From Octopus vulgaris (Eukaryota): 64,000 bases of DNA. Positions 6,305 to 56,575 of the stretch are shown here, piece after piece. The stretch lies in contig OX597814.1 of NCBI GenBank assembly GCA_951406725.2, forward strand, positions 86,800,001 through 86,864,000. Reading direction: 5' to 3'. The notes beneath the pieces were generated by a model. The model was not told where the DNA came from. It did not search any database and saw nothing but the letters and a program-made list of their open reading frames with translations. Each line of letters begins with the position of its first letter. Position 1 is the first letter of the stretch. Position numbers and translations under genes: made by a program.

Positions 6305-7581
6305 CAGGACTGGGCAACCTTTTTGAGAGTGCATGCCAAAACTGGCAAAATCTGACAAAATTCCACATGCCAACCAATTTTTTTTTAGAACATATCAGGG
6401 TACTTGATATCTCTTAAGAAAGTGTATGTCAAGAACTTTTTTAATAAATGATTTAAAAAAAAAAAAAAAAAAAAAAATCACCATAGAGTAATAAAACAAT
6501 ATATAATGATGGATAATGTATTTATTCACCTTCAAAGTTATATCTAAACAACAATGAACCTTTGCCACTTTCAAAAGAAAACATTGGTCAGATGAAATAT
6601 CAGTTTGACAAAACTTGATAACTCCTTTCGATATACATGTATATTCAGTATTATTAGTGGGAATTCTGCCTCTGTATCATTGATGACTGATTTTGTATTG
6701 GGTTTATATTTCGTAACCTTCAGAGATATGCATGTATTCCTAGTTTCATCTGTCAGGTTACTCCTATTACAAAACTTAAAGTTCACCACCGAGAACAAGG
6801 ATTCACAGACATAGGTTGATGAAAACATGGATATTAGTGCTGTTACAAAATTCTTTAAACTGGAAAAATTTTCTGGAATGGCATTCCAAATCCTTAATAA
6901 TTCGTTTTCTTCACTCCTCTCTGGTACTCCCGTCTCTAATTGCCTTTTTTCAATACTTTCTAAGACAATGCTAAGGTCAATAAATTTTTGTTTCCAAATT
7001 TAGCTACTTTGAAATTCAATCATGTCTGGAAACTTCATGAATTTTGCTGTCTCTTCCAGTTCTCTGAATTCAGCAAACCTTGTAAAAAAAACTGCTCAAC
7101 AGTTGACTCAATGCTTACAAACAGCTTTTGAAGGAATTAACATTCTGTTCTATTACCTTTTGATAGATCATTGATGTACCTCTTTATGTTAGGGAAGTAT
7201 CTAAATCTCGCATTGTTAACATCCCTCTTAAAAACTTGTAGTTTCATTTCAAAAGCGTTTATGTAACCAAACATATCAAGTGTCTTACAAGAGCCCTGTA
7301 ATTTAACATTCAAGTCATTCAAATGTTCCCCCAAATCTGCAAAAAAAACACCAGTTTACAAACCCACAAGATGTCAAACAATTCTTGATAAGAAACATGT
7401 TGGTCATTAAAAAGAGCTTTATCTCATTTAAGCATTCAACAAATCATTTGTAATGTAAAATGTATCTGAGCAATAAAATGTTGCTATATACTATTGAAAG
7501 TCATTAAATGGAGGGTTACTAGAGAGAGGGTTTCGCGTGCTAGAAACAAGTTATTGGCATGCCAGGACTTGCTTACCCCTG
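6305..7581 (-). mobile_element. hAT DNA transposon (Charlie/SPIN/GTF2IRD2-like), internally deleted
   Basis: CAGG..CCTG termini with perfect 8-bp TSD CCTTAGAA (6297-6304 and 7582-7589). Minus-strand remnants HLNDLNVKLQG..FEMKLQVF and SMFSSTYVCESLFS (hAT C-terminal dimerization region). Confidence 0.9.
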
Positions 7582-17901: not shown

Positions 17902-19178
17902 ATCATCATCATCATTTAGCGTCCGCTTTCCATGCTAGCATGGGTTGGACGGTTCAACTGGGGTCTGTGAAGCCAGAAGGATGCATCAGGCCCAGTCTGA
18001 TCTGGCAGTGTTTCTACGGCTGGATGCCCTTCCTAACGCCAACCACTCCGTGAGTGTAGTGGGTGCTTTTTACATGCCACCCGCACAGGTGCCAGACGGA
18101 GCTGGCAAACGGCCACGAACGGATGGTGCTTTTACGTGCCACCGGCACTAGGCCAGTCGGGGCAGCGCTGGCAATGGTCACGAACGGAAGGTTCTCTTAC
18201 GTGCCACCGGCACTGGTAACTCAGCTGCAATTTCCATTGATCGATTTCGATTCTGATCCTCAGTTGCCTCAACAGGTCTTCACAAGTAGAGTTTTGTGTC
18301 CCAAGAAGGGAAGGTATGCGTACGTAGGCTGGCTCCATCCCATGTAGAAGGCCACGGGTTATGGTCTCACTTGTCCTGCTGGGTCTTCTTGCGCACAGCA
18401 TACTTCCAGAGGTCTCGGTCTCAAGTCATTTCCTCAGTGAGACCTAAAGTTTGAAGGTCGTGCTTCACCACCTCGTCCCAGGTTTTCCTGGGTCTGCCTC
18501 TTCCACCGGTTCCCTCAACCGCTAGGGTGTGGCACTTTTTCACACAACTATCTTCATCCATTCTCGCCACATGCCCATACCAGCGCAAACGTCTCTCTTG
18601 CACCCCACAACTGATGCTTCTTAGGTCCAGCTTTTCTCTCAAGATACTTACACTCTGTCGAGTATGAGTACTGACATTACACATCCATCGGAGCATACTG
18701 GCTTCATTTCTTGCGAGCTTACGCATATCCTCAGCAGCCACGGCCCATGTTTCACTGCCATGTAGCATGGCTGTTCGTACACACGCATCATACAGTCTGC
18801 CTTTTACTCTGTGCGAGAGGCCTTTTGTCACCAGCAGAGGTAAGAGCTCTCTGAACTTTGCCCAAGCTATTCTTACTCTAGCAGTTACACTTTCAGCACA
18901 CCCGCCCCCACTGCTGACTTGGTCACCTAGGTAACGGAAGCTATCAACTATTTCTAGTTTTTCTCCCTGGAAAGTGACGGAAGTTGGTCTCAGAGCATTT
19001 TCAGTGTTTATTGTTCCTGAGTATCTGCCACATACAAAAACCATCTTCCTAGTTAGCCTTCCTTTGACATTGCTGCACCTCTTATGTGTCCATAGCTTAC
19101 ACTTGGTGCATCTTATAGAGTTTCTACCTACACCTTTTCTACAGATTGAGCAGGGCCATCTACCTGAAGGCGTTTGTT
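17902..19178 (-). mobile_element. RTE-clade LINE, 5'-truncated, young
   Basis: Uninterrupted C-terminal ORF (EIVDSFRYLGD..MLHGSETW..RRLRWYGHVARM..GRGRPRKTW), 3'UTR and (GAT)n tail. Confidence 0.93.
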
Positions 19179-23271: not shown

Positions 23272-23485
23272 TTAAATTTTTAGTATTCAAACCAGCCATA
23301 TCAAGCCCAAATATGTTTCTTGTTTCATGTTCAGACTGACCAGATCAGGCCTCTTATACCTACTCTGCAGTGTCAATTTAAAAATAAACAATCCCATCAT
23401 TGAAATCTCAAGTCTACAAGATAATGTATGATAAATACAAAACAATGTGAATAAAGAACCACTGCACTTAATGCTAAAGGGTTAA
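23272..23485. mobile_element. piggyBac-type MITE, family A (other copies 43250-43478 and 54121-54349)
   Basis: TTAA-CCCTTTAG...CTAAAGGG-TTAA ends (best preserved at 54121-54349) with a shared ~220-bp body. Confidence 0.8.
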
Positions 23486-24502: not shown

Positions 24503-24937
24503 GGGCAAACGAAAAAAATTTCTAATGCCAAAAAAGCCGAAATTAGACACATTGTCCATAATTATAATTTTTTCACAATAAGCACGCTACTCAAAAAAGG
24601 TCAACAGAAATTTCTAAAAAATTCCATTATTACCATATCAGACTGATTTCAAGGTTAGCTCGTAAGAACCCTCCCATCGTCAGTGATAAATGTGGCAAAG
24701 AAATAAATGAGATACTTACTCATACCCATAAGTATCTCATTTATTTCTTTGCCACATTTACCACTGACAAAGGGAGGGTTCTTACAAGCTAACCCTGAAA
24801 TCGGTCTGATATGGTAACAATGGAAATTTTTAGAAATTTCTGTCGACCTTTTTTGAATAGCGTGCGCATTGTGAAAAAATTATAATGGTTATGGACAATG
24901 TCTAATTTTGGCATTAGAAATTTTTTTTGCTTGCCCC
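24503..24937. mobile_element. Palindromic (foldback) MITE, ~215-bp arms, ~10-nt loop
   Basis: gggcaa..aaatttctaatgcca...gagatactta-ctcataccca-taagtatctc...tggcattagaaattt..ttgccc is self-complementary along its whole length. Confidence 0.85.
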
Positions 24938-27404: not shown

Positions 27405-29068
27405 GGCCAAACTAGAGCGTTTGACCCGGTCATAAAAAAAAGTGTAATAGGTGTAAAACAACTTGCTCTAAATGAATATGACAAAAAATGCATGCTCGTG
27501 GAAGGGGGTGGGAGAGAGGACTCGGAAAATTCACATCGTGAATGTTCCGAAAGCGTCTGACCCAGGCACAAAAACAACAAAAATAGTGTAATAGGTGTAA
27601 AACAAATTCCCTGAAGTAGTGAAGAAAATCGCGGTACTTGTCTATTGTCGTGGTCCTGGTTTCGCACACGCGAATTCGCGCGCCAGACGTAGGTACACGA
27701 TACTCGAGATCCTACGAGGTGACTTGCGCATGCGCAGTGCAGAATTCGCGCATGCGCGTTAACCACCCTAAAAAAAAAGGTGTTGGATTACACTAAAAAT
27801 ATATATGTGTGTGTGTGTGTATATATAACATTTTCAATTTTACACAAAAAAATTACATAGTCGCTTTCCTCGCGGATTTACAGATAAATGAATTAATTAC
27901 TATTTTACAGAATAAAATTAATGAATTAATTATATAAATTAAATAATTCTTGAAAATTAATTAATATTAATAATATTTTTTGAACAAAGTAAATAATTTA
28001 TAAAACTTGGTTAATAATTTTTTTTACACAAACGCGAACGTATATAATTTGGTAAACTTAATGAATTAATTTCTTATCATCATCATCGTTTAACGTCCGT
28101 TCTCCATGCCAGCATGGGTTGGACGGTTCGACCGGGGATCTGGGAAGCCAGAAGGCTGCACCAGACTCCAGTCTTATCTGGCAATGTTTCTACAGCTGGA
28201 TGCCCTTCCTAACGCCAACCACTCCGAGAGTGTAGTGGGTGCTTTTTACATGCCACCCGCACAGGTGCCAGGCGAGGCTGGCAACGGCCACGGTCGGATT
28301 GGTGCCAGTCGAGCGGCTCTGGCATCGGCCACGATTCGGATAGTGCTTTTTACATACCACCAGTCCAGGGGTCCTGGCATTTGCCGGGTGCCACACTTGC
28401 CCCAACATGTCTTTGCAAGCAAAGGGGTTGGCATGGGTGCCTGTCGTGGGATGAGGTTCGATATCAACTTTGCTTGCCTCAACAGGTCTTTGTGTCTAAA
28501 TGTATAAATTTTTCGCACTAAATTCTTTCCGTAGAATTTATCAAAAAAAAATTATTCCGTAGAATTTATCAAATTAAAAAACGCAAAATTAATATATTTT
28601 TGAAATTGCAAATTATTTAGAATATAAAACAAATGAAGTTAAATTTTTAAAATAAATGTCATATACTTATACTCTGTAAGGTGCTGTGTTCACACTTCAA
28701 TTTACTATTTTCTAGAAATGTTGCTTTTCTAATTGAAACAATTTTTCTCAATCTCCATTTAAAAGTCCATAATGCCTCTAGAGCCATATCAAAATGAACA
28801 ACTTTGAATTACGCGGCGGCGGTGGTGGTGTGAGGTTCTAATTTTTTTTTTCTGATCTCTCTTTGCCCCCTCTTTATTTCAGTTGTTCATTCCGCTAATA
28901 TTTAGAAAAATTTTCGCGCCCAATTTTTGTTGTCGCGGGAAAAGATGAACGATTTAAAATAAATATATCTTAATTGTAGTGTGAGAAAGTATATATATTC
29001 TGATGACAAAATATATTATCTTTCAAAAACATCCCAAATTTATAGACTATATCGTGTAGGTTTAAGAA

Positions 29069-29099
<31 letters not shown>

Positions 29100-31310
29100 T
29101 ATAGTAGAGAATGAAACATCTTTCATCTGTCTCCCCACCACACCTCCATCTAGGGGGGCAAAGAGAGATCAGAAAAAAAAAAATTAGAACCTCACACCAC
29201 CACCGCCGCCGCGTAATTCAAAGTTGTTCATTTTGATATGGCTCTAGAGGCATTATGGACTTTTAAATGGAGATTGAGAAAAATTGTTTCAATTAGAAAA
29301 GCAACATTTCTAGAAAATAGTAAATTGAAGTGTGAACACAGCACCTTACAGAGTATAAGTATATGACATTTATTTTAAAAATTTAACTTCATTTGTTTTA
29401 TATTCTAAATAATTTGCAATTTCAAAAAATATATTAATTTTGCGTTTTTTAATTTGATAAATTCTACGGAATAATTTTGCGCGTTTTTTGATAAATTCTA
29501 CGGAAAGAATTTAGTGCGAAAAATTTATACATTTAGACACAAAGACCTGTTGAGGCAAGCGAAGTTGATATCGAACCTCATCCCACGACAGGCACCCATG
29601 CCAACCCCTTTGCTTGCAAAGACATGTTGGGGCAAGTGTGGCACCCGGCAAATGCCAGGACCCCTGGACTGGTGGTACGTAAAAAGCACTATCCGAATCG
29701 TGGCCGATGCCAGAGCCGCCTCGACTGGCACCAATCCGACCGTGGCCGTTGCCAGCCTCGCCTGGCACCTGTGCGGGTGGCATGTAAAAAGCACCCACTA
29801 CACTCTCGGAGTGGTTGGCGTTAGGAAGGGCATCCAGCTGTAGAAACATTGCCAGATAAGACTGGAGTCTGGTGCAGCCTTCTGGCTTCCCAGATCCCCG
29901 GTCGAACCGTCCAACCCATGCTGGCATGGAGAACGGACGTTAAACGATGATGATGAGAAGAAATTAATTCATTAAGTTTACCAAATTATATACGTCTGTA
30001 AAAAAAAAAAAGTTTCACAAATTATATACGTTCGCGTTTGTGTAAAAAAAATTATTAACCAAGTTTTATAAATTATTTACTTTATTCAAAAAATAATATT
30101 AATTAATTTTCAAGAATTATTTAATTTATATAATTAATTCATTAATTTTATTCTGTAAAATAGTAATTAATTCATTTATCTGTAAATCCGCGAGGAAAGC
30201 GACTATGTAATTTTTTTGTGTAAAATTGAAAATGTTATATATACACACACACACACACACATATATATATTTTTAGTGAAATCCAACACCTTTTTTTAGG
30301 GGGGGGTTAACGCGCATGCGCGAATTCTGCACTGCGCATGCGCAAGTCACCTCGTCTGGCGCGCGCGTGCGCGCGAATTCGCGTGTGCGAAACCGGGACC
30401 ACGACAATAGACAAGTACCAAAATCGCTACCTACTACCTATATATATATATTGTTCCCCTTTAAAAGATGAAGTTGTGGAATATAAATAAAAAAAACCGT
30501 GAGTCTCAGAAAAACATTCTCAAACGCATGCTACCACACTGAATTACAGAGCGGATTCATGGAAAACGACCAAATTTTCACATAGTAACCAATGATATGC
30601 TGAACATTTATGGCTGTTAAAATTGTAGATTGTCTTTAAAACAAATATTTTAAAGCTTCACAAATGTAAATTACACCATTTTCTATAAATGGTGTAAACT
30701 ACGTTTGTGAAGCTTTAAAATATTTGTTTTGAAGACAATCTACAATTTTAACAGCCATAATGTTTAGCATATCATTGGTTACTGTGTGAAAATTTGGTCG
30801 TTTTCCATGAATCCGCTCTGTAATTCAGTGTGGTAGCATGCGTTTGAGAATGTTTTTCTGAGACTCACGGTTCTTTTTTTTTTTTTTACAACTTCCACAA
30901 CTTCATCTTTTAAAGGGGAACAAAGTGTGTGTATATATAGGTAGAGATTTTCTTCACTACTTCACCTATTACGCTATCTTTTTTTTGTTTTTGTACCCGG
31001 GTCAGACCCGGAACATTCACGATGTAAATTTTCCGAGTCCCCTCCCCCCTTTTGCGAGTGCGCATTTTTTTTGGTCATATTCGTTTAGAGCAAGTTGTTT
31101 TACACCTATTACACTATTTAAAAAAAATTTTTGTGCCAGGGTCAGATCCTCAGACGCTTTCGGAAATTCACGATGTGAATTTTCCGAGTCGTCTCCCTCA
31201 CCCACCCACCCTTTCGCGAGCGCGCATTTTTTTTTGTCATATTCGTTTAGAGGAAGTTACACTATTTTTTTTTTTGCTTTTCTGGCCGGGTCAAACGCTT
31301 TAGTTTGACC
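27405..31310. repeat. Outer hairpin element (arms 27405-27632 + 30428-30681 versus 30687-31310; 5-nt loop)
   Basis: With 27633-30427 removed, the left part is the reverse complement of the right part (ggccaaactagagcgtttgacccgg vs ccgggtcaaacgctttagtttgacc; centre ttacaccattt-tctat-aaatggtgtaa). The right arm carries an extra ~170-bp tandem unit. Confidence 0.88.
27633..30419. mobile_element. Foldback non-autonomous DNA transposon with ~1.25-kb TIRs (Merlin-like ends)
   Basis: Arms 27633-28870 and 29154-30419 are near-identical inverted copies with a 283-bp spacer. Termini GGTACTTG..CAAGTACC; exact 8-bp TSD AAAATCGC at 27625-27632 and 30420-30427. Confidence 0.9.
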
Positions 31311-31555
31311 GAAAAAATTCAAATCGGACTATGTTAAAACCAAAAATTATTTACATCAAAAAGGTGCTTTTTTTTCTATGAAAATCCCTATTTTTTACGA
31401 TTTTTTGACTGCTGTGTCGCCATTTTTCGGTGTATTTCAACCAGAAAATTGTTCATTTAAAGAGAATAACAAGCTACATAATGCAAAATTTTTACTTTCA
31501 AAAATTCCATTTCTAAAAGGGTCGAAACCCGAGCAACGCCGAGCGATATTGCTAG
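31311..31555 (+). mobile_element. Helitron 3' terminus
   Basis: cccgagcaacgccgagcgatattgCTAG|t; same end motif as the minus-strand ends at 23744, 37251 and 57523. Confidence 0.65.
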
Positions 31556-32573
31556 TATATATATAAAGCCAAAACGATAAAATATTTCAAAATTTCCGAT
31601 TTCAATAATCATACTTCTACAATTCTCAGTAAGCCATCGTCAAATTTTAACATCTGCTAGAAGACATCGACCAAAATGCTTTCTGTAACACCCAGTGTTA
31701 CTTCTCCATCTCTCTCTCTCATATATATATATATATATGATGAAAAATAGCAGTAAGCAGGTAAAAGATAAAATATTCTGGTTGAATAAGACACTAATTC
31801 AAACGAAGTCAAAAATTTAGTAGTGGAAATTATTAATGTTGGGATAGAAAAAATAGTTATAAACTATATAATTATATTGATTAAATAAGAAAATAAAACA
31901 AAAGCAGTGGAAGAATAAAAAGCGAAAAATCTGATAATGGTATAAATTAAAAAAAAAAAATAGAACGAAAAGGGAAGTAAGAAGGGGCGAATTGGTTACA
32001 TTTTATATATACTTTAGGTTAGAAAACTAATTTAATTAGTCTTACAGGATATGTACATATATATATAACAAAATTATTCAATAAAATAAATCAATAAAAA
32101 TATTTCTAAAAATACATGTGGAGTAAATTGGGAAGAAAAAAAAAGAGGTAATGAATAAAACAGTCGTGTTAGTGAATATTGCTATGTCATTTCATATAGT
32201 AACATGATGGACTGATAAAAGAAAATGTGGTCAAGAAAAGCCAGTAATAGATGAGATTTGCGAACCAAACAATTTTAGAAAGACGATAGGCGTACACTTA
32301 AAGAAGATTGTAGAAACTCTATAGAAAAAGAGAACAATGAATATTTAACGCCGGTCTGCTTGCCATTTTAACTTTACAGAATATTTGACGCCGATACATA
32401 TCACCCTAGCTTTAAGGAGGGGGGGGAGAGAAACGGCAATACGACTTAACAAGCTGCAGTAATACTATAACGGTTCTTTAATAACAAAGAAGAATCCGCT
32501 TGAAGACGAAAAAAATAAAAATAAGATCGTAATATCAAATAAATTAATGTATGAAAAAGGAAGAAATGATTAC

Positions 32574-37250: not shown

Positions 37251-38970
37251 CTAGCAGTAGTAACTGGCGTTGCACGGGTCTTAATAAATTACCATGAAAC
37301 TGTGGAAACATGAGACCTTACGCTTGAGAAAAAGCAGTTTGGGGCATGACATTGTTAAAGCAATAACCTTGGTAACCTCTTGAATCAGATCAATACTCAA
37401 GCTTCCTTTCAAAAAGTTATATTCTTGCGCTGTTTATGGTTTCCGTGTACAAGTGGTTTTGGGTGAAGCCGGGCCAAACCGCTGAACCACCAGACCGATT
37501 CGATTGAAATTTCAGATATGCATTAGGTATGTTCCGAGGCATGTTTTAGTCATAACAATTGCTTCGCTCAATGTTAGGTTTTCACAAAGACTTGATCGAT
37601 AATTATCGATTTTTACAAAAAGTCGTCTGATTTCAACCAAACTTGGTATACATTTGCAGTTTGACCCAAAGAGTTTCATGGCATCATGATACTCAGTGGA
37701 TGACCGGAAGACTGAAACTGAACTACAGAAGCACAATGAATTGTTTCTAGGCCAGCATATGAAAGACCATCATGACCTCCTAGCGCAAGTCTTCCGGTTG
37801 AAGCTTATCAAACTAATGGAGCTTCTCCATGGGAGGGCAAATACTTGGCCCCGTTAGATGCGATATGTATACTGTTGAATGGCAAAAGAGAGGCCTACCA
37901 CATGCTCATATTCTAATCTGGTTCTCGGTAAGAATACCTCCCAATGATATTAACAAGATTATCTCTGCCGAGATTTCAAACCCATCTACTGAGAGACATC
38001 TCTTTGAAATATTCAAGGCGACCATGATCCACTGGCCATGTGGGCACGGCACGGATTCAGTTTGGGCTTCCCTTGCTTGAGCAACAATATCTGCTGCAAC
38101 AAGTTTCCAAAAATATTTCTGAAGGAAATACAAACTGGCATTGATGGACACCCTCTGTACAGACGGCGCCTACCATGAAAATTGGACAACATGAGGCTGA
38201 CACAGATGGGTTGTACTGTATTCACCGCTTCTTTTGAAGATGTTTGGCGCCCACATCAATGTGGAATTTTGCCATTCCATCAAGTCCATCAAGTATATCT
38301 GCAAATGTGTCAACAAGGGCTCAGACGCTGCTATGTTTGGTCTACCGCAGGAAAACTGCCGTGACGAGGTCTTACAATACCATGTTGGCCATTATATTAG
38401 CAGCAACAAGCCTTCTGGTATATTTTCAGCTTTCCAATATACCAAAGGCACCCACCCATTGAGCAATTTGCAGTTCACCTGGAGAACAGTCAAAGGGTGA
38501 ACTTTACCAATGTGACTGCCGCCAGAACAGTTGAAGAGCCTCAACAAACTATTCTCACTACATTCTTTGCTCTGTGCTGGAATGGCCCATTTGCAAAAAC
38601 TCTGCTTTATCCTCAGGTTCTGTCCTACTACACAGTGTGTATATTTGCCTCAATGTAGTTTCGCATGAGTTTGTGCACAGTTAATCTTGTACCATTGCAT
38701 AATTTTGGTTGAGACAAATTGTGTAATAGCATAATAGGAATCCATTTTTTCGGCTGAAGACCATGAGAAGCTGTACTTGGTGATTCTAGTGAGTTCAAAA
38801 ATTTGATGGGGTAGTTAACAATATCATGACCATCAACAACCCTGTCAATTGAGTTATAAGTGAATACTTCTCTTGGTAGTTTATTCAATAGCATATTATT
38901 AATTCTATGTACAGCAACATTATTTTGGAGTCAGAATAGCTTCTCACAGATCCAATTTGCATTGTTGTAA
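37251..38970. mobile_element. Rearranged Helitron: Rep/HUH on + (37676-38627); PIF1 helicase piece (38628-38970) and 3' CTAG end (37251) on -
   Basis: Rep motifs YTVEWQKRGLPHAHILIW and AHINVEFCHSIKSIKYICK; helicase motif IMLLHNLSQPKLCNGTRL; terminal gacccgtgcaacgccag..CTAG. Confidence 0.9.
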
Positions 38971-41806
<2,836 letters not shown>

Positions 41807-42180: not shown

Positions 42181-43842
42181 TATCAAGATGGGTCAAAGAG
42201 ACATTTTTTATCTAAAGGGCTTTTCAGTTCTATATTTACATGCTTAATATCTACTTCAAGATCCAGTTCCAAAAAAGAAGTATTGCATGTTCTCTCAAAA
42301 ATTTTACCAATTCTTATGACATAAACATCATCATCATCATACATACATACATACACACATACATACATACATACATACATACATACATACATACATACAT
42401 ACATACATACGCATATATGGATGGCTAATGAACAGAGAAAGTATAGAGTTGAGAGGTCCCTTTAGACCTGGTCTGCTGAGCACTCATCATGAGAAAATGC
42501 ACCCATTACCCTCTGTAAGATGGTTGAAGATGAGGAGGATGGTGGTAGCAATGGTCATGATGATGTTTTTAACAGTTTTATGAAAATCTCTACTGTACCA
42601 CTAAGTGCACCTCTCTGTTTCTGTAATGTGTGCATCTTTGTCTTTTGGGGTTGTAGAATTGCATTTATATACTGCATCAGTTTTGCCTTGTAGGATATTT
42701 TGTGACTTTGCATGTTATTTTAGCATTTCATGTTGTTAGGAAGGGCATCCAGCTGTAGAAACACTGCCAGATCAGACTGGAGCCTGGTGCAGCCTCCTGG
42801 CTTCCCAGACCCCGGTTGAACCATCCAACCCAGGCTAGCATGGAAAACGGACATTAAATGATGATGACGATGATGATGAATACTGGTAATATGAGTTGTT
42901 GGTATTATAATGTGTCGTGTATTAATGAAGGCTATTTGTATTATTGTGCTTAATTTCTGCTTCGAGTTGTGTTATAAGGTTTGGTGGTGATACTGTAAAA
43001 GCACTGATTCTCAACCTTTCTTCTATCCTTTACCCCTTCAACTTGATGTTTTTCTCCATTTCCTTTCTTCGGTGTAAAGTAAAACTCAAATTATAGTAAA
43101 TATTGCAAGCTTCAAAATTTGTTGCATATTCTGTCATTCTGCTGCCATTATGCAATATATAAATCTGATGCATCTCAGCAAAAAGAATATGTGTACTGTA
43201 TTTTCCAGCATATAAGTGAACTTAATATATAGTGTTAATATGTAAACATTTAACCTTTTAGTATTCAAATTACTCTTACAAATGAAATGCTTATTTATTC
43301 ACATTGTTTTGAATTAATCATGCATTATTTCATAGCTTTGAGATTTTGATGGGGCAACTGTCAATTTTTAGAGTGATATTGTAGGGTTGGTGTGGGAGGC
43401 CAGATCTGGTCAGTTTCAACATAAAACAAGGTAGAATATTTTGGTCAGATATGGCTGGTTTAAATGCTAAAGGGTCAACATTGTCAATATCTTTCCAAAT
43501 CTTGCTGCATTTCACATGTTATTTTAAATTCCCCAGTCTTGTCTTGGCGTATAAGTCTACTTACTTTTTCTTGGATTGGTTTTTCTTTTATATTTTTGTT
43601 CATCTTTATTTTATAATACTAAATGCACCAATTATTATTGATACTGTTTCCACATTCTGCTCATTTCAATTTCAAAATCCTTTTGTTTGATAGGTTTTTC
43701 ATTTTCTAGGTAATATTTTGGTTAGGAAGGATCAAGATATAAATTAGGGTACAGAACATTTATGATAGTAAGACTGATAAATTTAAGCATCAAAAGGTTC
43801 TGGACTTGATAACAATAATAATATTGTTTGTGACATACATTA

Positions 43843-46340: not shown

Positions 46341-47820
46341 CAATAACTGTACCACCTTGATTTCATAGCTGTCTGAAATGAGAATATGAAGTTGATGGAT
46401 AAAATAAATTTAAAAACTCAGGCGTTAATATACAGCTTAAGCTTAAACCCGCTACATATTTTTGAAATAATAAGCTTATTTAATATTTTTATGGCAGTAG
46501 AAAGACCTTAGAAAAGTATTTATTTAATTTAATACCAATTCAAATACATGTTTTACATCTTTTTTGTCTCAAGCTAGAATTTTTCTCAATGACAAACTGC
46601 AGAGAAAAGCTTTTTAAGGATTCAAATATCTACTAGATATTTTTATTGAGTCAATTAATTTTTTTTTTATTGAAGCTGAACAGATTTCTCTGCTTTCTCA
46701 GTGAACTACATATTAAAATATGCAGCTTGAGATGAAATCCAAGTTGTTATATTTTTGAAATAGTTAAAATTTTTTTTTTGTTGGTAAAAAGATCTAAGCA
46801 AATTGCTTATTTTTTTAATTAATTATTTTTATCGAATTTACTGAAAACATTTCTCTACATCTTCATTGAGCATTTCATAGTCAGCAAAAATGCATGATTC
46901 TTTCATATGATGATATCTTAACAGACGTTGCATAGCTTGTGGCTCTGTACTACATGTGGTATTGTTGAAAGAACTGTATCAGCATTTTGTTACTTTACTT
47001 TGTCATATCTAGTTCTCAGTTAGTTAGGAATTTCTAAATTTCCTAGCATACATCTATACCAGGCATTAGCTTGTTCACTTGCCACCATTTTCATTGTTGT
47101 TGAGGGTAGTAGACTGTTATTTTTTTCTTCTCATAGAATTATTCTTACCTCATTTGTGGTAAGAACAATAAGAGATGACACATTTAGAGAAGCATTCCTT
47201 TGACTGCAGATGACTCTGAACTCTGAATTGCTCTTTAGTGGTTAAATATAGGTGCAGCACCTTGAGCAGGTGTCTTCTATTATAGCCCTGGGTTGACCAA
47301 TGTCTTGTAAGTGAAACCTGTTGCATGTGTGTGTGTGTGAGAGAGAATATATATATATATATATTGTCAGTAGTACGTATATCCAAAAAAAGAGCCATAC
47401 TTTAAAGCATACTCTAAAACATACATGACTCGTCATACTCAAATAGCTGAAGGCACATAACCTCTCTATAACTGGAGGGAGGAAGACATCATGATCAGTT
47501 AGTTTTGTAAACAAAAATGCCCTCATATAAGATGTTTCCTGCTTTAAGTTTAGAATTCCCTATTTGTAGAATAGGACCATGGTAGCATCTTCGAATATCA
47601 ATATGGCTGGAACAGATATAAGGGAGATACCTTGTCTTGCCTGTAACACAACTCTGGATATATATTTTTTTGTTTACAAAACTTAATTGAGCATGACATC
47701 TTCCTCCTAGCTGTAGAGAGGTTATGCACCTTCAGCAATTTGAGTCTGATGAGTCACCTACATGGTTAAGCACTTTATAGGTGCGAAACCAATGGTCATA
47801 ACAATCAACTTCCTAAAAAG

Positions 47821-52788: not shown

Positions 52789-52893
52789 TCTCCTGAAGTG
52801 TAAGCAAGGTCTAAAGACATCTGCCCTTGAATTTAAGATGTTCCCTTAAATTCAAGGACAGATGTCTTTAGACCTTGCTGACACTTCAGAAGA
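52789..52893. repeat. ~49-bp-stem hairpin with 7-nt loop
   Basis: tctcctgaagtgtaagcaaggtctaaagacatctgcccttgaatttaag-atgttcc-cttaaattcaaggacagatgtctttagaccttgctgacacttcagaaga. Confidence 0.9.
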
Positions 52894-53890: not shown

Positions 53891-56575
53891 GTTTTGGAGT
53901 TTTGGATCAGGATTTTCTGTTATGACAAGGATTTTTGCAATTTCTTTCCACCACAAGCCTTGGAAAAAAAATGTTTGAAAATTTATGACTTTTTTTGACC
54001 CTCTAGATCGATTTTGGACAATTTTTGTTTTTTGTTTGCACTATGCACTTAAAAACCATAGGAGAAGCCTTTTTGTTAAAAAAAAATGTGAAAATACTTT
54101 CAGACGAAAAGGTGTGTGGTTTAACCCTTTAGTGTTCACATTATTCTGATATAATTAAAGCTTTTTCATCCACATTGTTTTGAACTAATCATGCATTGTC
54201 TTGTAGCTATGAGATTCTGGTGAGGTAGCTGTTAATTTTTAAAACGATATTGTAGGGTTGGTGTGAGAGACCAGATCTGGTCAGTTTGAACATAAAACAG
54301 GCAGAATACTTTTGGCCGGATATGGCCGGTTTAAATGCTAAAGGGTTAAGGGAGATTAAGGCTGTTATTTGTGGCCCATCCCACAACTACCTTCCTCATT
54401 TTTATTGTTACTCTCACATGCATTGATGTTTTTCAACATCTCCCCATAAACACATTTACACTATTAAGAAAAATTTCTTGAAAATTATTATTTTTTCAAC
54501 ATCTTCTGCCTTCTGCTATTGTTTCTGTTTATAATTTTAAAATATTGGAGAGCCTGAGAAGTTCATTGCTGGGATTTATCCACAGTAATTTAAAAAAGGT
54601 ATGTAAAAGATCATTTATTTTAATAGCATACCTTTTTGTTAGTAAATATGTTTTTTCTTACACACACACAAACACGCATACATACACATGCACTCACTTG
54701 GTGGTGCTGATGAGGGGCTTTAAACATTTTAATTATAATCATTTTGTTATTTAAATCTGAGCAATGGACCACTTCTGAACTAAACATTCCATAATCATCT
54801 TCATTCCATAAAATATGCTTATGGGGAGAAAAATATAAAAACGCATCAATACACAAGAGTGACAAAGAGATGTGGAAGGTGGCTGTAGGATGTGCTAGAA
54901 ACAACACCCAAATCTTATTTAACTCACTCACCTTTTTGTCTGAAAATATTTTCAAATTTGTTTTAGATCATTTAATCTCATGTCTATGATAGAGACACTG
55001 AAGACAGAGGAGGATGCTGTGTCGTACCTGCAAGAAAAGGGTGTTATACCCAAAAGAAAATTGTGGTGGTCCTGGGAAGATTGTTGAGATTGATGAAACA
55101 GTCTTCTGAAGACATAAGTACAACCAAGGAAGGGTCCTACCTGAGCAGTGGGTTTTTGGAGGAGTGTATCACGAGACTAGACAGGTTTTCCTACATGTGG
55201 TGCCATGTCAGAATCGTGACACACTGGAAGAATGCACACGTCACTCGATTCTTCCAGGAACAACAATTTTCAGCAATTTGTGGAGGGTGTACTCTCACAT
55301 TCCTGAAATTGATAGTTACAATTTTGAGCATAGAACGGTGAACCACAGTATTGGATCTGTTAACTCAAAAGATAGTACCCACACTCAACAAGTGGAGAGT
55401 ACATAGGCCTCTGTAAAGTGAGGTAATAAATGATACTGTGGCACTCACCGTTCTATGGTAGATTCATAATCTCTATGAATTTATGTGGTGCAGGCAGGGC
55501 CAGCTTTAGGGTTACTGGTGCCCCGGGCAAGCTGAACTTCAATTTTGGCATGTACAAGCTGATGATCATGGAAATTTCCTTGTCTTTGTCATGCCCTCCT
55601 TAGTGCCCCCTAGCATATGGCACTCTGGGTGACTGCTGGTACTTTGAGCTGGCCCTGGACGCAGAAGATATGAAAATTGTAATTTGTTTGAGGAATCGAA
55701 TGAATGCATTTCTAACGTTCATTTTCAATTTAAAAAATATTTATCTCATAATGCACTATTTTGTTTTCAGGATAAAACTTTTAAGTTTATATTAATGCTT
55801 AAATGTTTGTTTGTTAAGCATATTTAATTTGTAATGTATTGCTTATTGCATGTAATGTGTTGTATATCACATTAAATGCATATTGAATGCTTAAAACTAC
55901 AAAAGACATGTTCTTTACTCCTTATTTTTTTTGTCATTGAGGTCGTTGTGAGGTGTGCTAAAAATAGCAGCTAAATAACGTTTTGGGATAAATCTTTTAA
56001 CTTCGTGCTATAACATTAAATGCATATTGAATGCTTCAAACTACAAAATATGTGTTGTTTTCCATATATCGAATACAAATATTGACACATTCTATTTTCA
56101 GGATGTTATCAACAAAATGTGTAGTCACACACAAAATGACAGCTTCCAAATCTTGTTTCCTAACTGGGTGAAAATGATCAAATTTTAAACTTCTATAACT
56201 TTCTAAATACATTTTTCTGGAAAAGTGAAATAACTCCAGCAATTCAGTTTGGAAAAGTACATTAATGTGCCAAGTTTTAAAATTTTCGATAAACTTTAAT
56301 TTTTGAAATGCTGGCTGCCAAACAAAAAAGATACTTTTTTTTTCTACTGAAAAGGTTTCTCCCATGGTTTTTAAATGCATAGGACAAAAAAAGAAAAAAA
56401 AGGCCAAAATTGGTCCGTAGTAGGGATGGAAAGGACAGGGGAGGGTGTATAAAAAAAAAAATCATAAATTTTCAAACATTTTTTCATAAAAGAATGTCCC
56501 CCTCATGGTTTCAAAGGCTGTGCTGAAAACGGAGAAAATCCATTTTATGTGGACATCCCGATCTGAAACTTCGCC
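53891..56575 (+). mobile_element. Merlin (IS1016/ISXO2-like) DNA transposon with decayed transposase
   Basis: 8-bp TSD GTTTGGTA (53883-53890, 56576-56583) and ~200-250-bp imperfect TIRs. Transposase relic ~54980-55700: GGPGKIVEIDET..WVFGGV..ILPGTTIFSNLWRVY..HRTVNHS..HTQQVEST..YEFMW. Confidence 0.9.
55495..55657. mobile_element. hAT-like MITE inserted in the Merlin transposase
   Basis: TIRs CAGGGCCAGCT / AGCTGGCCCTG; decayed 8-bp TSD ggtgcagg / gacgcaga. Confidence 0.75.

What the first reader, a model, noticed from the sequence alone, without database searches (positions are those of the whole stretch)
27633..30419. Young 2.8-kb foldback transposon with ~1.25-kb TIRs, both carrying the same retroposon fragment
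Seen: two near-identical inverted arms around a 283-bp non-coding spacer, GG..CC termini, an exact 8-bp TSD, and no transposase. The same 5'-truncated RTE 3'UTR piece sits at the same position in both arms (28075-28500 and 29520-29956). Known: GG termini with 8-9-bp TSDs typify Merlin elements, whose TIRs are usually far shorter; a Merlin relic with an 8-bp TSD is also in this window (53891-56575), though its TIR sequence differs. Inference: one arm was copied from the other after the LINE inserted (arm-to-arm conversion or template switching). This may be an undescribed giant-TIR foldback family that homogenises its arms and moves retroposon cargo.
Basis: partly seen in the sequence, partly recalled or inferred. 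Interest (0 to 1): 0.8.

Follow-up and report, generated by a model that had tools for sequence, protein, structure and literature searches.

The report
Mirror-armed transposon carrying duplicated retroposon scrap
This 2.8-kb mirror-image element is one copy of a gene-less jumping-DNA family in a likely octopus genome; its two long arms carry the same dead retrotransposon scrap, likely because one arm was copied onto the other, as already described for the fruit-fly element Galileo.

Summary
Observation confirmed: 27633-30419 has arms of 1238 and 1266 bp (98.9% identical), a 283-bp spacer, GG..CC ends and an exact 8-bp duplication. It interrupts one arm of an older palindromic repeat whose other arm lacks the insert. 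Contigs of four public runs carry the arm, the spacer-arm junction and (3 of 4 runs) the arm-retroposon junction at repeat-level depth. So the 421-bp RTE 3'UTR scrap is a trait of a multi-copy family, not an artefact or a private duplication. Both arms share two letters that none of 18 and 9 laid contigs show. This suggests later arm-to-arm conversion, but contig simplification could mimic it. Merlin membership is unproven: arm length is outside the published range, no partner transposase was found, and Mutator-type foldbacks fit too. Transfer of a TE insertion from one TIR to the other is published for Galileo (PMC4168063), and this scan noted a similar case on other DNA (e1-9235873). Verdict: new member of a known kind, interest 0.3.

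The parts
27625..27632 (+). left copy of the 8-bp target-site duplication
   Evidence: only length 8 of 2-15 matches; p about 2e-5
27633..28870 (+). left arm (long TIR, 1238 bp), starts GG
27633..27790 (+). GC-rich terminal domain (GC 0.52, 17 CpG) with short internal palindromes; the most divergent part between the arms; likely transposase-binding end (inferred)
   Evidence: DNA fold z -2.45
27791..28075 (+). AT-rich arm domain (GC 0.19) with degenerate direct repeats
28076..28496 (-). 5'-truncated LINE (RTE-type) 3'UTR fragment with trinucleotide tail, left arm
   Evidence: truncation point from loose ends
28497..28870 (+). inner arm domain; 0 substitutions between arms in 374 bp
28871..29153 (.). 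283-bp non-coding spacer with a TA run; part of the family
29154..30419 (-). right arm (long TIR, 1266 bp), ends CC
29536..29956 (+). the same LINE 3'UTR fragment, right arm
29996..30031 (.). 36-bp insert (short direct duplication plus A-run) found only in the right arm
30420..30427 (+). right copy of the 8-bp target-site duplication
27405..27632 (.). host: outer part of the left arm of an older palindromic repeat
   Evidence: high depth
30428..31310 (.). host: rest of the left arm, centre and uninterrupted right arm (stand-in for the empty site)

Best explanation
This is one copy of a multi-copy, gene-less foldback element whose two 1.25-kb arms both contain the same LINE 3'UTR fragment; it was likely inserted here by a cut-and-paste transposase supplied from elsewhere, and the arms likely share the fragment because one arm was copied onto the other during DNA repair. 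Steps: (1) Inferred: a TIR transposon lost its gene and lengthened its TIRs by break repair templated on its own other end. (2) Inferred: a LINE inserted once into a progenitor arm, since a decayed 17-bp duplication (13/17) may flank it and an arm variant without it exists. (3) Inferred: template-switch or conversion repair put it into both arms before amplification. (4) Shown: the arm, spacer and retroposon junctions lie at repeat-level depth in four runs; inferred: order 100 elements. (5) Shown: an 8-bp duplication inside an older repeat; inferred: made by a Merlin-type (about 0.5) or Mutator-type (about 0.4) transposase. (6) Suggested: patchy later conversion between arms, strongest near the spacer.
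For: TSD and termini. The host repeat resumes after the TSD and its other arm has no insert. In X1 a unique flank contig has depth 58.5, while five low-depth arm bins are 196-280 times that and one spacer/arm junction variant alone is 17 times. Contigs running from the arm into the retroposon have depth 2908 (X2), 5122 (X3) and 348 (X19), against neighbouring arm contigs of 2033-2848, 4673 and 236-436. The spacer/right-arm junction is crossed in X19 (record 9) and X3 (record 25, 0 differences, depth 1030). The left junction appears as a loose end in X19. Spacer-end depth is 0.14-0.59 of arm depth in X2, X3 and X19, as two arms per spacer predict. At 29245/28780 and 29377/28648 both arms share a letter shown by 0 of 18 and 0 of 9 laid contigs in 4 of 4 runs, while the arms have 0 substitutions between them in these 374 bp (Poisson p about 0.02 if unlinked). 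In X3 the other letter accounts for at least 65% and about 78% of arm depth, more than one arm's worth. The same process is described for Galileo (PMC4168063 section 10; PMC3573991 section 10).
Against: No second full copy, second TSD or autonomous partner was seen, because no genome is held. No read or contig confirms this locus's own flank-terminus junctions: the X1 flank contig stops at 27462, and 3 of 3 raw-read runs had no flank reads. The tool warns that summed contig depth is no copy number. The listed contigs at the retroposon junction have only 30, 28 and 18 letters on the retroposon side, short of the tool's 31-letter rule, and X3 record 25 has 27 on the arm side. In X1 spacer-end bins (14.5k) are not half of the lowest arm bins (11.5-14.9k). 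Contigs drop rare variants: for X19 the share at 29377 is 0.49 or 1.35 depending on the reference contig, and for X2 it is 0.41-0.69 over 29377/29390. A one-base indel at 28312 differs between this copy's arms and is dimorphic in X1 (38%), so homogenisation is incomplete at best. Only 24 of 78 loose-end rows and 32 of 910 pieces were displayed.
Confidence: 0.62

Rival explanations
1. One-off origin only: a progenitor became palindromic in a single template switch after the LINE had inserted, then multiplied with no later exchange between arms. The two shared letters are assembly errors or alleles hidden by contig simplification.
For: The arms still differ at 13 substitutions and 11 indels. The 28312 indel is dimorphic at family level. 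One shared site is a homopolymer-boundary shift, a common long-read error type (own knowledge). X2 and X19 depth shares allow a collapsed 50:50 bubble.
Against: 18 and 9 separate contigs from four studies all lack the window's letters, including the fragmented X1 graph, which keeps rare branches of depth 3-70. X3 shares exceed 50%. The window differs from X1 at only 1 of 1402 unique flank bases.
Confidence: 0.3
2. Superfamily rival (independent of the arm mechanism): the element is moved by a Mutator/MULE transposase and is an FB/Tetris-like foldback, not a Merlin derivative.
For: MULEs have long TIRs and 8-10-bp TSDs; all 14 Aedes families have 8-9-bp TSDs and 12 of 14 have TIRs over 100 bp (PMC5225508 passages). 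Most foldbacks are thought to be Mutator (PMC4079207 passages). O. vulgaris has 21 recently active Mutator families against 2 Merlin families (PMC13282606 Table 1). Arm length is outside the Merlin range of 24-462 bp.
Against: No regular 9-15-bp subterminal tandem array. GG ends with an 8-bp TSD are the stated Merlin signature. A Merlin relic lies in the window. Recently active O. vulgaris Merlin insertions average 2636 bp, though that may be autonomous elements.
Confidence: 0.4
3. Private event: the family has short TIRs, and only this copy gained an inverted duplication of its interior, starting at the 36-bp insert at 29996-30031.
For: Differences cluster in the outer 180 bp (4 substitution events in about 148 bp against 4 in 1054; Fisher p 0.01). 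Outer bins had about twice the depth of inner bins.
Against: The spacer/right-arm junction is at repeat depth in 4 of 4 runs, and the left junction is seen in X19. Only 2 X1 contigs leave the sequence at 29152 among the displayed rows.
Confidence: 0.04
4. Assembly fold-back artefact.
For: No independent read spans the locus.
Against: Exact TSD; the host repeat continues in register; 24 differences between arms; both inner junctions are present in independent runs.
Confidence: 0.03

Closest known systems
Galileo 2-TIR copies with extended TIRs, Drosophila willistoni and D. mojavensis (PMC4168063: passages and sections 6 and 10 read; PMC3573991: passages and section 10 read)
   Same: Non-autonomous copies made of two long TIRs (about 1-4.7 kb) and a spacer, with AT-rich segments. 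Fragments of other TEs become part of both TIRs in transposing copies. TIR extension is explained by break repair templated on the other TIR.
   Different: Galileo is P-superfamily with typically 7-bp GTANTAC TSDs. Here the TSD is 8 bp with GG ends, the passenger is a LINE 3'UTR rather than DNA-transposon pieces, it is carried at full family depth, and the host is a mollusc.
Foldback elements of Mutator type: FB, Tetris (PMC4079207, passages), Aedes Muta1 (PMC5225508, passages)
   Same: Long modular TIRs, non-coding middle, 8-10-bp TSD, no ORF.
   Different: No regular tandem-repeat domain in these arms; partner transposase unknown.
Merlin superfamily (PMC8101967, passages; Feschotte 2004 not read, cited through it)
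   Same: 5'-GG termini and an 8-bp TSD; Merlin is present in this window and recently active in O. vulgaris (PMC13282606).
   Different: Arms of 1238/1266 bp against 24-462 bp; no IS1595-type transposase; ends unlike those of the window's Merlin relic.
TIR-TIR recombination with gene conversion in Wolbachia ISWpi1 (PMC3004938, passages); multicopy Pack-TIRs by template switching then transposition (PMC8277862, passages)
   Same: Conversion makes the two TIRs of one copy identical; template switching followed by amplification.
   Different: 23-bp bacterial TIRs in the first; captured host DNA between the TIRs rather than inside both in the second.

Membership tests
Merlin | TIRs begin 5'-GG | tested here: met
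   feature from PMC8101967
Merlin | 8- or 9-bp TSD | tested here: met
   8 bp in 1 of 1 copy examined; other copies could not be seen
Merlin | TIR length 24-462 bp | tested here: not met
   1238 and 1266 bp. PMC3573991 notes that TIR length is unreliable for classification, but I do not file it as Merlin.
Merlin | DDE_Tnp_IS1595 transposase in the element or in a partner with the same ends | tested here: inconclusive
   None in the element; the window's relic has different ends; no genome to search
Mutator/MULE foldback | long TIRs (over 100 bp) and 8-10-bp TSD | tested here: met
   feature from PMC5225508
Mutator/MULE foldback | subterminal tandem repeats of 9-15 bp (10 of 12 long-TIR Aedes families) | tested here: not met
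   only microsatellites, a 44-bp two-copy repeat and degenerate AT-rich repeats; a common feature, not a universal one
Mutator/MULE foldback | MULE transposase partner with the same ends | not testable with these tools
   no genome held
Galileo (P superfamily) | 7-bp TSD, consensus GTANTAC | tested here: not met
   8-bp AAAATCGC; not a member
Galileo-like behaviour | foreign TE fragment present in both TIRs of transposing copies | tested here: met
   PMC4168063 section 10
Non-autonomous foldback (2-TIR) element, structural class | long TIRs, non-coding middle, TSD, multiple copies | tested here: met
   multiple copies inferred from contig depth only
RTE-clade LINE 3'UTR (the passenger) | homology to the 3' end of an RT-encoding LINE with a short-repeat tail | tested here: inconclusive
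   89.6% over 231 bp to 17902-18129; the inner part aligns more weakly (score 52 against shuffled maximum 39). The linked ORF is nearest to mollusc PHD/RVT_1-associated clusters (RVT_1 on only 10-11% of members of 2 clusters). The RTE clade label rests on motifs recalled from memory.

The most novel reading that the evidence does not exclude
A Merlin-mobilised family with TIRs almost three times the longest reported for Merlin, whose two arms undergo recurrent gene conversion inside each mobile copy. New mutations and even a LINE insertion would then spread to both arms and on to a hundred or more loci in several related species: concerted evolution within a mobile palindrome, with a conversion rate and polarity measurable from one long-read assembly.
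Probability: 0.22. Interest if true: 0.55.

Novelty: new member of a known kind. Interest (0 to 1): 0.3.

Why it matters
It adds a mollusc example of Galileo-style TIR growth, with a retroposon fragment fixed in both arms. With about a hundred near-identical 2.8-kb palindromes, the family could be used to measure how often and in which direction inverted arms convert each other, which the Galileo papers propose but do not measure in the sections I read. If a Merlin partner is found, the known TIR range of that superfamily would nearly triple. Such palindromes are also likely trouble spots for assembly and rearrangement (inference). No new mechanism is needed.

Tried and rejected
A 24-base terminal pattern had 0 matches in metagenome contigs, and a 15-base pattern found only the two known ends in the window. 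Raw-read runs X21-X23 laid 25, 41 and 4 reads, nearly all on the LINE piece and none on the unique flank, so they say nothing about this locus. After I favoured a private inverted duplication, because outer bins had twice the depth of inner bins; one search refuted this. In one search LINE contigs swamped the tables (16 of 520 loose-end rows and 15 of 60 joints shown, with an overflow warning), so the absence of a listed LINE-skipping joint or of terminal loose ends is not evidence. A species-fixed difference at 29390 (other letter 80% in X1, 99% in X2, 0% in X3 and X19) was not counted as proof of conversion, because X2's contig depth allows a collapsed bubble. The candidate 17-bp LINE TSD (13/17) is weak: 3 of 629 background windows in the arms score as well. 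The Fisher test used a mis-entered count and was redone on events. Rfam gave nothing above threshold, and PDB gave only weak zinc-finger matches (PHD and C1 type, E 0.03 or worse) for the LINE ORF. A recalled Merlin terminal motif was not found in any relevant paper, so it is not used. 7 of the 24 listed runs were laid. Look-ups of earlier findings by sequence gave one irrelevant hit and none.

Full report
What is there. The element spans 27633-30419. Its arms are 27633-28870 and 29154-30419 around a 283-bp spacer, and they differ by 13 substitutions and 11 indels over 1215 aligned bases. It begins GG and ends CC. An 8-bp word is repeated exactly on both sides; no other length from 2 to 15 matches, and chance is about 2e-5. 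Each arm has a GC-rich terminal 160 bp, an AT-rich part, a 421-bp LINE fragment and an inner 374 bp. Substitutions by segment are 9, 1, 3 and 0 from outside to inside. Nothing codes, and Rfam has nothing above threshold. The genome is AT-rich and full of microsatellites. Earlier AI notes call it an octopus, and a LINE ORF in the window is nearest to mollusc clusters; I did not establish the species.

The site. The flanks belong to an older palindromic repeat (27405-27632 plus 30428-31310). With the element and one TSD copy removed, the left host arm aligns in register with the right host arm, which has no insertion there. This internal stand-in for the empty site, the TSD and the 24 differences between arms make an assembly fold-back unlikely. 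No independent read crosses this locus's own ends: the X1 flank contig stops at 27462 and the three raw-read runs had no flank reads.

The passenger. Positions 28076-28305 match the 3' end of the LINE at 17902-19176 at 89.6%, and shorter stretches match six other places in the window. The inner part aligns more weakly. LINE-family contigs leave the element's sequence before 29536/29537 in X1, X2 and X3, which marks the truncation. The label RTE rests on recalled protein motifs. A possible decayed 17-bp duplication flanks the piece but is not significant.

Is it a family? No genome is held, so I used public runs (24 listed, 7 laid). In X1 a unique flank contig has depth 58.5, while element bins sum to thousands or tens of thousands. 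That call suggested a 2:1 outer-to-inner ratio and so a private duplication. I tested this on 29106-29585 in X1, X2, X3 and X19, four studies and three species labels, with 393, 141, 272 and 97 contigs laid. The spacer/right-arm junction is crossed by X19 record 9 (48 and 51 letters on the two sides) and by X3 record 25 (48 and 27 letters, no differences, depth 1030). One junction variant in X1 has depth 975, 17 times single copy. The left junction shows as a loose end in X19 that matches 28871-28900. Spacer-end depth is 0.14-0.59 of arm depth in X2, X3 and X19, but not lower than the lowest arm bins in X1. Contigs that run from the inner arm into the LINE piece have depth 2908, 5122 and 348, against arm contigs of 2033-2848, 4673 and 236-436. 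They carry only 28, 18 and 30 letters on the LINE side, short of the tool's 31-letter rule. By my arithmetic, assuming 31-letter words, 28 of 49, 18 of 37 and 30 of 80 of their words straddle the junction, so the junction must be near full arm depth. Five low-depth X1 arm bins give 196-280 arm equivalents, or order 100 elements; the tool warns that such sums are no copy number. One contig each in X2, X3 and X19 goes from 29485 straight into outer-arm sequence matching 30024-30053 with 2 mismatches. This is an arm without the LINE piece, either the pre-insertion state or a deletion. Only 24 of 78 loose-end rows and 32 of 910 pieces were displayed.

Do the arms still talk to each other? At 29245 (paired with 28780) and 29377 (paired with 28648) both arms of this copy carry the same letter, and all covering depth in 4 of 4 runs shows another letter (18 and 9 contigs). 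Over the same 374 bp the arms have no substitution between them; with two private changes per arm that has probability about 0.02. In X3 the other letter makes up at least 65% and about 78% of arm depth, more than one arm could supply. A change present in both arms of one lineage and in neither arm of another needs arm-to-arm transfer. Against this: contigs drop rare variants; X2 and X19 shares are compatible with a collapsed bubble; one site is a homopolymer-boundary shift; the 28312 indel differs between the arms and is dimorphic in X1 at 38%; and the left arm has its own one-base deletion at 28596 that 99% of X1 depth lacks. I read this as occasional, patchy conversion, likely rather than shown. 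It also means arm identity is no clock. The copy differs from the family majority at 2 of about 376 inner-arm bases and 2 of about 190 spacer bases, so it is young in the usual sense of under 2%.

Mechanism. A TIR transposon lost its gene and extended its TIRs by break repair templated on its other end (inferred; model in PMC3573991 section 10). A LINE landed once in a progenitor arm and was copied to the other arm (inferred), and the element multiplied with a transposase supplied in trans (multi-copy state shown by depth; enzyme inferred). Later conversion tracts, densest near the spacer, re-equalise the arms (suggested). Whether the LINE was copied in the event that first made the palindrome or by a later conversion cannot be told from one copy.

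Comparison with what is known. It works like Galileo. [quoted passage not shown] It is not Galileo, whose TSD is typically 7 bp. For Merlin, GG ends and the 8-bp TSD are met, the TIR range of 24-462 bp is not (PMC8101967 passages), and no partner is known; the window's Merlin relic has other ends. Mutator-type foldbacks fit on TIR length and TSD but lack the usual tandem arrays here (PMC5225508 and PMC4079207 passages). The O. vulgaris repeat paper (PMC13282606; parts 1-2 of 3 read and its one supplement searched) lists 18 Merlin families, 2 of them recently active (11 insertions, mean 2636 bp), and 21 recently active Mutator families, with no mention of foldbacks in the parts seen; its sequence library is external and unseen. 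TIR-to-TIR conversion is shown for a bacterial IS (PMC3004938 passages), and template switching followed by transposition is proposed for Pack-TIRs (PMC8277862 passages). I file it as a non-autonomous foldback element of unassigned superfamily.

Novelty. I found no paper on this family: a search for foldback, cephalopod and transposon gave 0 papers, and four other searches listed none on it by title or start of abstract. Repbase, Dfam and most subscription journals were not searchable. The scan noted a similar two-arm SINE case in another genome (e1-9235873, unchecked). The architecture and mechanism are known; the family and host are probably new. Interest 0.3. The boldest open reading, a giant-TIR Merlin family with recurrent conversion inside each copy, has probability about 0.22 and would merit 0.55.

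Noticed in passing
window 27405-27632 and 30428-31310, plus 31311-31556: The host is itself a high-copy palindromic repeat with a 511-bp core at 90.6% arm identity. It is followed by a stretch ending in a hairpin and CTAG that looks like a Helitron 3' end (recalled features, untested).
   Followed up: partly
window 53891-56575: Merlin relic confirmed: 8-bp TSD, broken IS1595-type transposase (PF12762), damaged left TIR. It contains a 230-bp repeat at 54120-54349 that recurs at 43249-43478 and 23279-23469.
   Followed up: partly
window 24503-24936, 47426-47756, 52789-52893: Three further small foldback or palindromic elements with unrelated ends; the window is rich in them.
   Followed up: no
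contigs laid at 29408-29471: A subfamily leaves the inner arm after 29471 into another sequence (9 contigs in X1, X2, X3). Variant contigs over 29408-29471 have depth 755 in X1 and 319 in X2. It could be a shorter-armed relative or a lead to the autonomous element.
   Followed up: no
window 29390 (paired 28635): The family majority letter differs between runs labelled organism A (80% and 99% other letter) and organisms B and E (0%): a possible lineage-specific change in both arms, not secure.
   Followed up: partly
window 18424-19173 (-): LINE ORF fragment with a PHD-like finger (PF00628, below cut-off) ahead of an RT-type C-terminal region; Atlas neighbours are unnamed, mostly mollusc clusters where taxa are recorded.
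   Followed up: partly
window 38631-38927 (-), 6574-6996 (-), 39865-41289 (+): Pif1 helicase 2B fragment (likely Helitron relic), weak hAT dimerisation fragment, and a second LINE-like ORF fragment without Pfam hit.
   Followed up: no
runs X21-X23: Three raw-read runs with the same species label as X1 gave no reads on 1.3 kb of unique flank from about 1.9 billion letters each, so they likely hold little of this genome.
   Followed up: no
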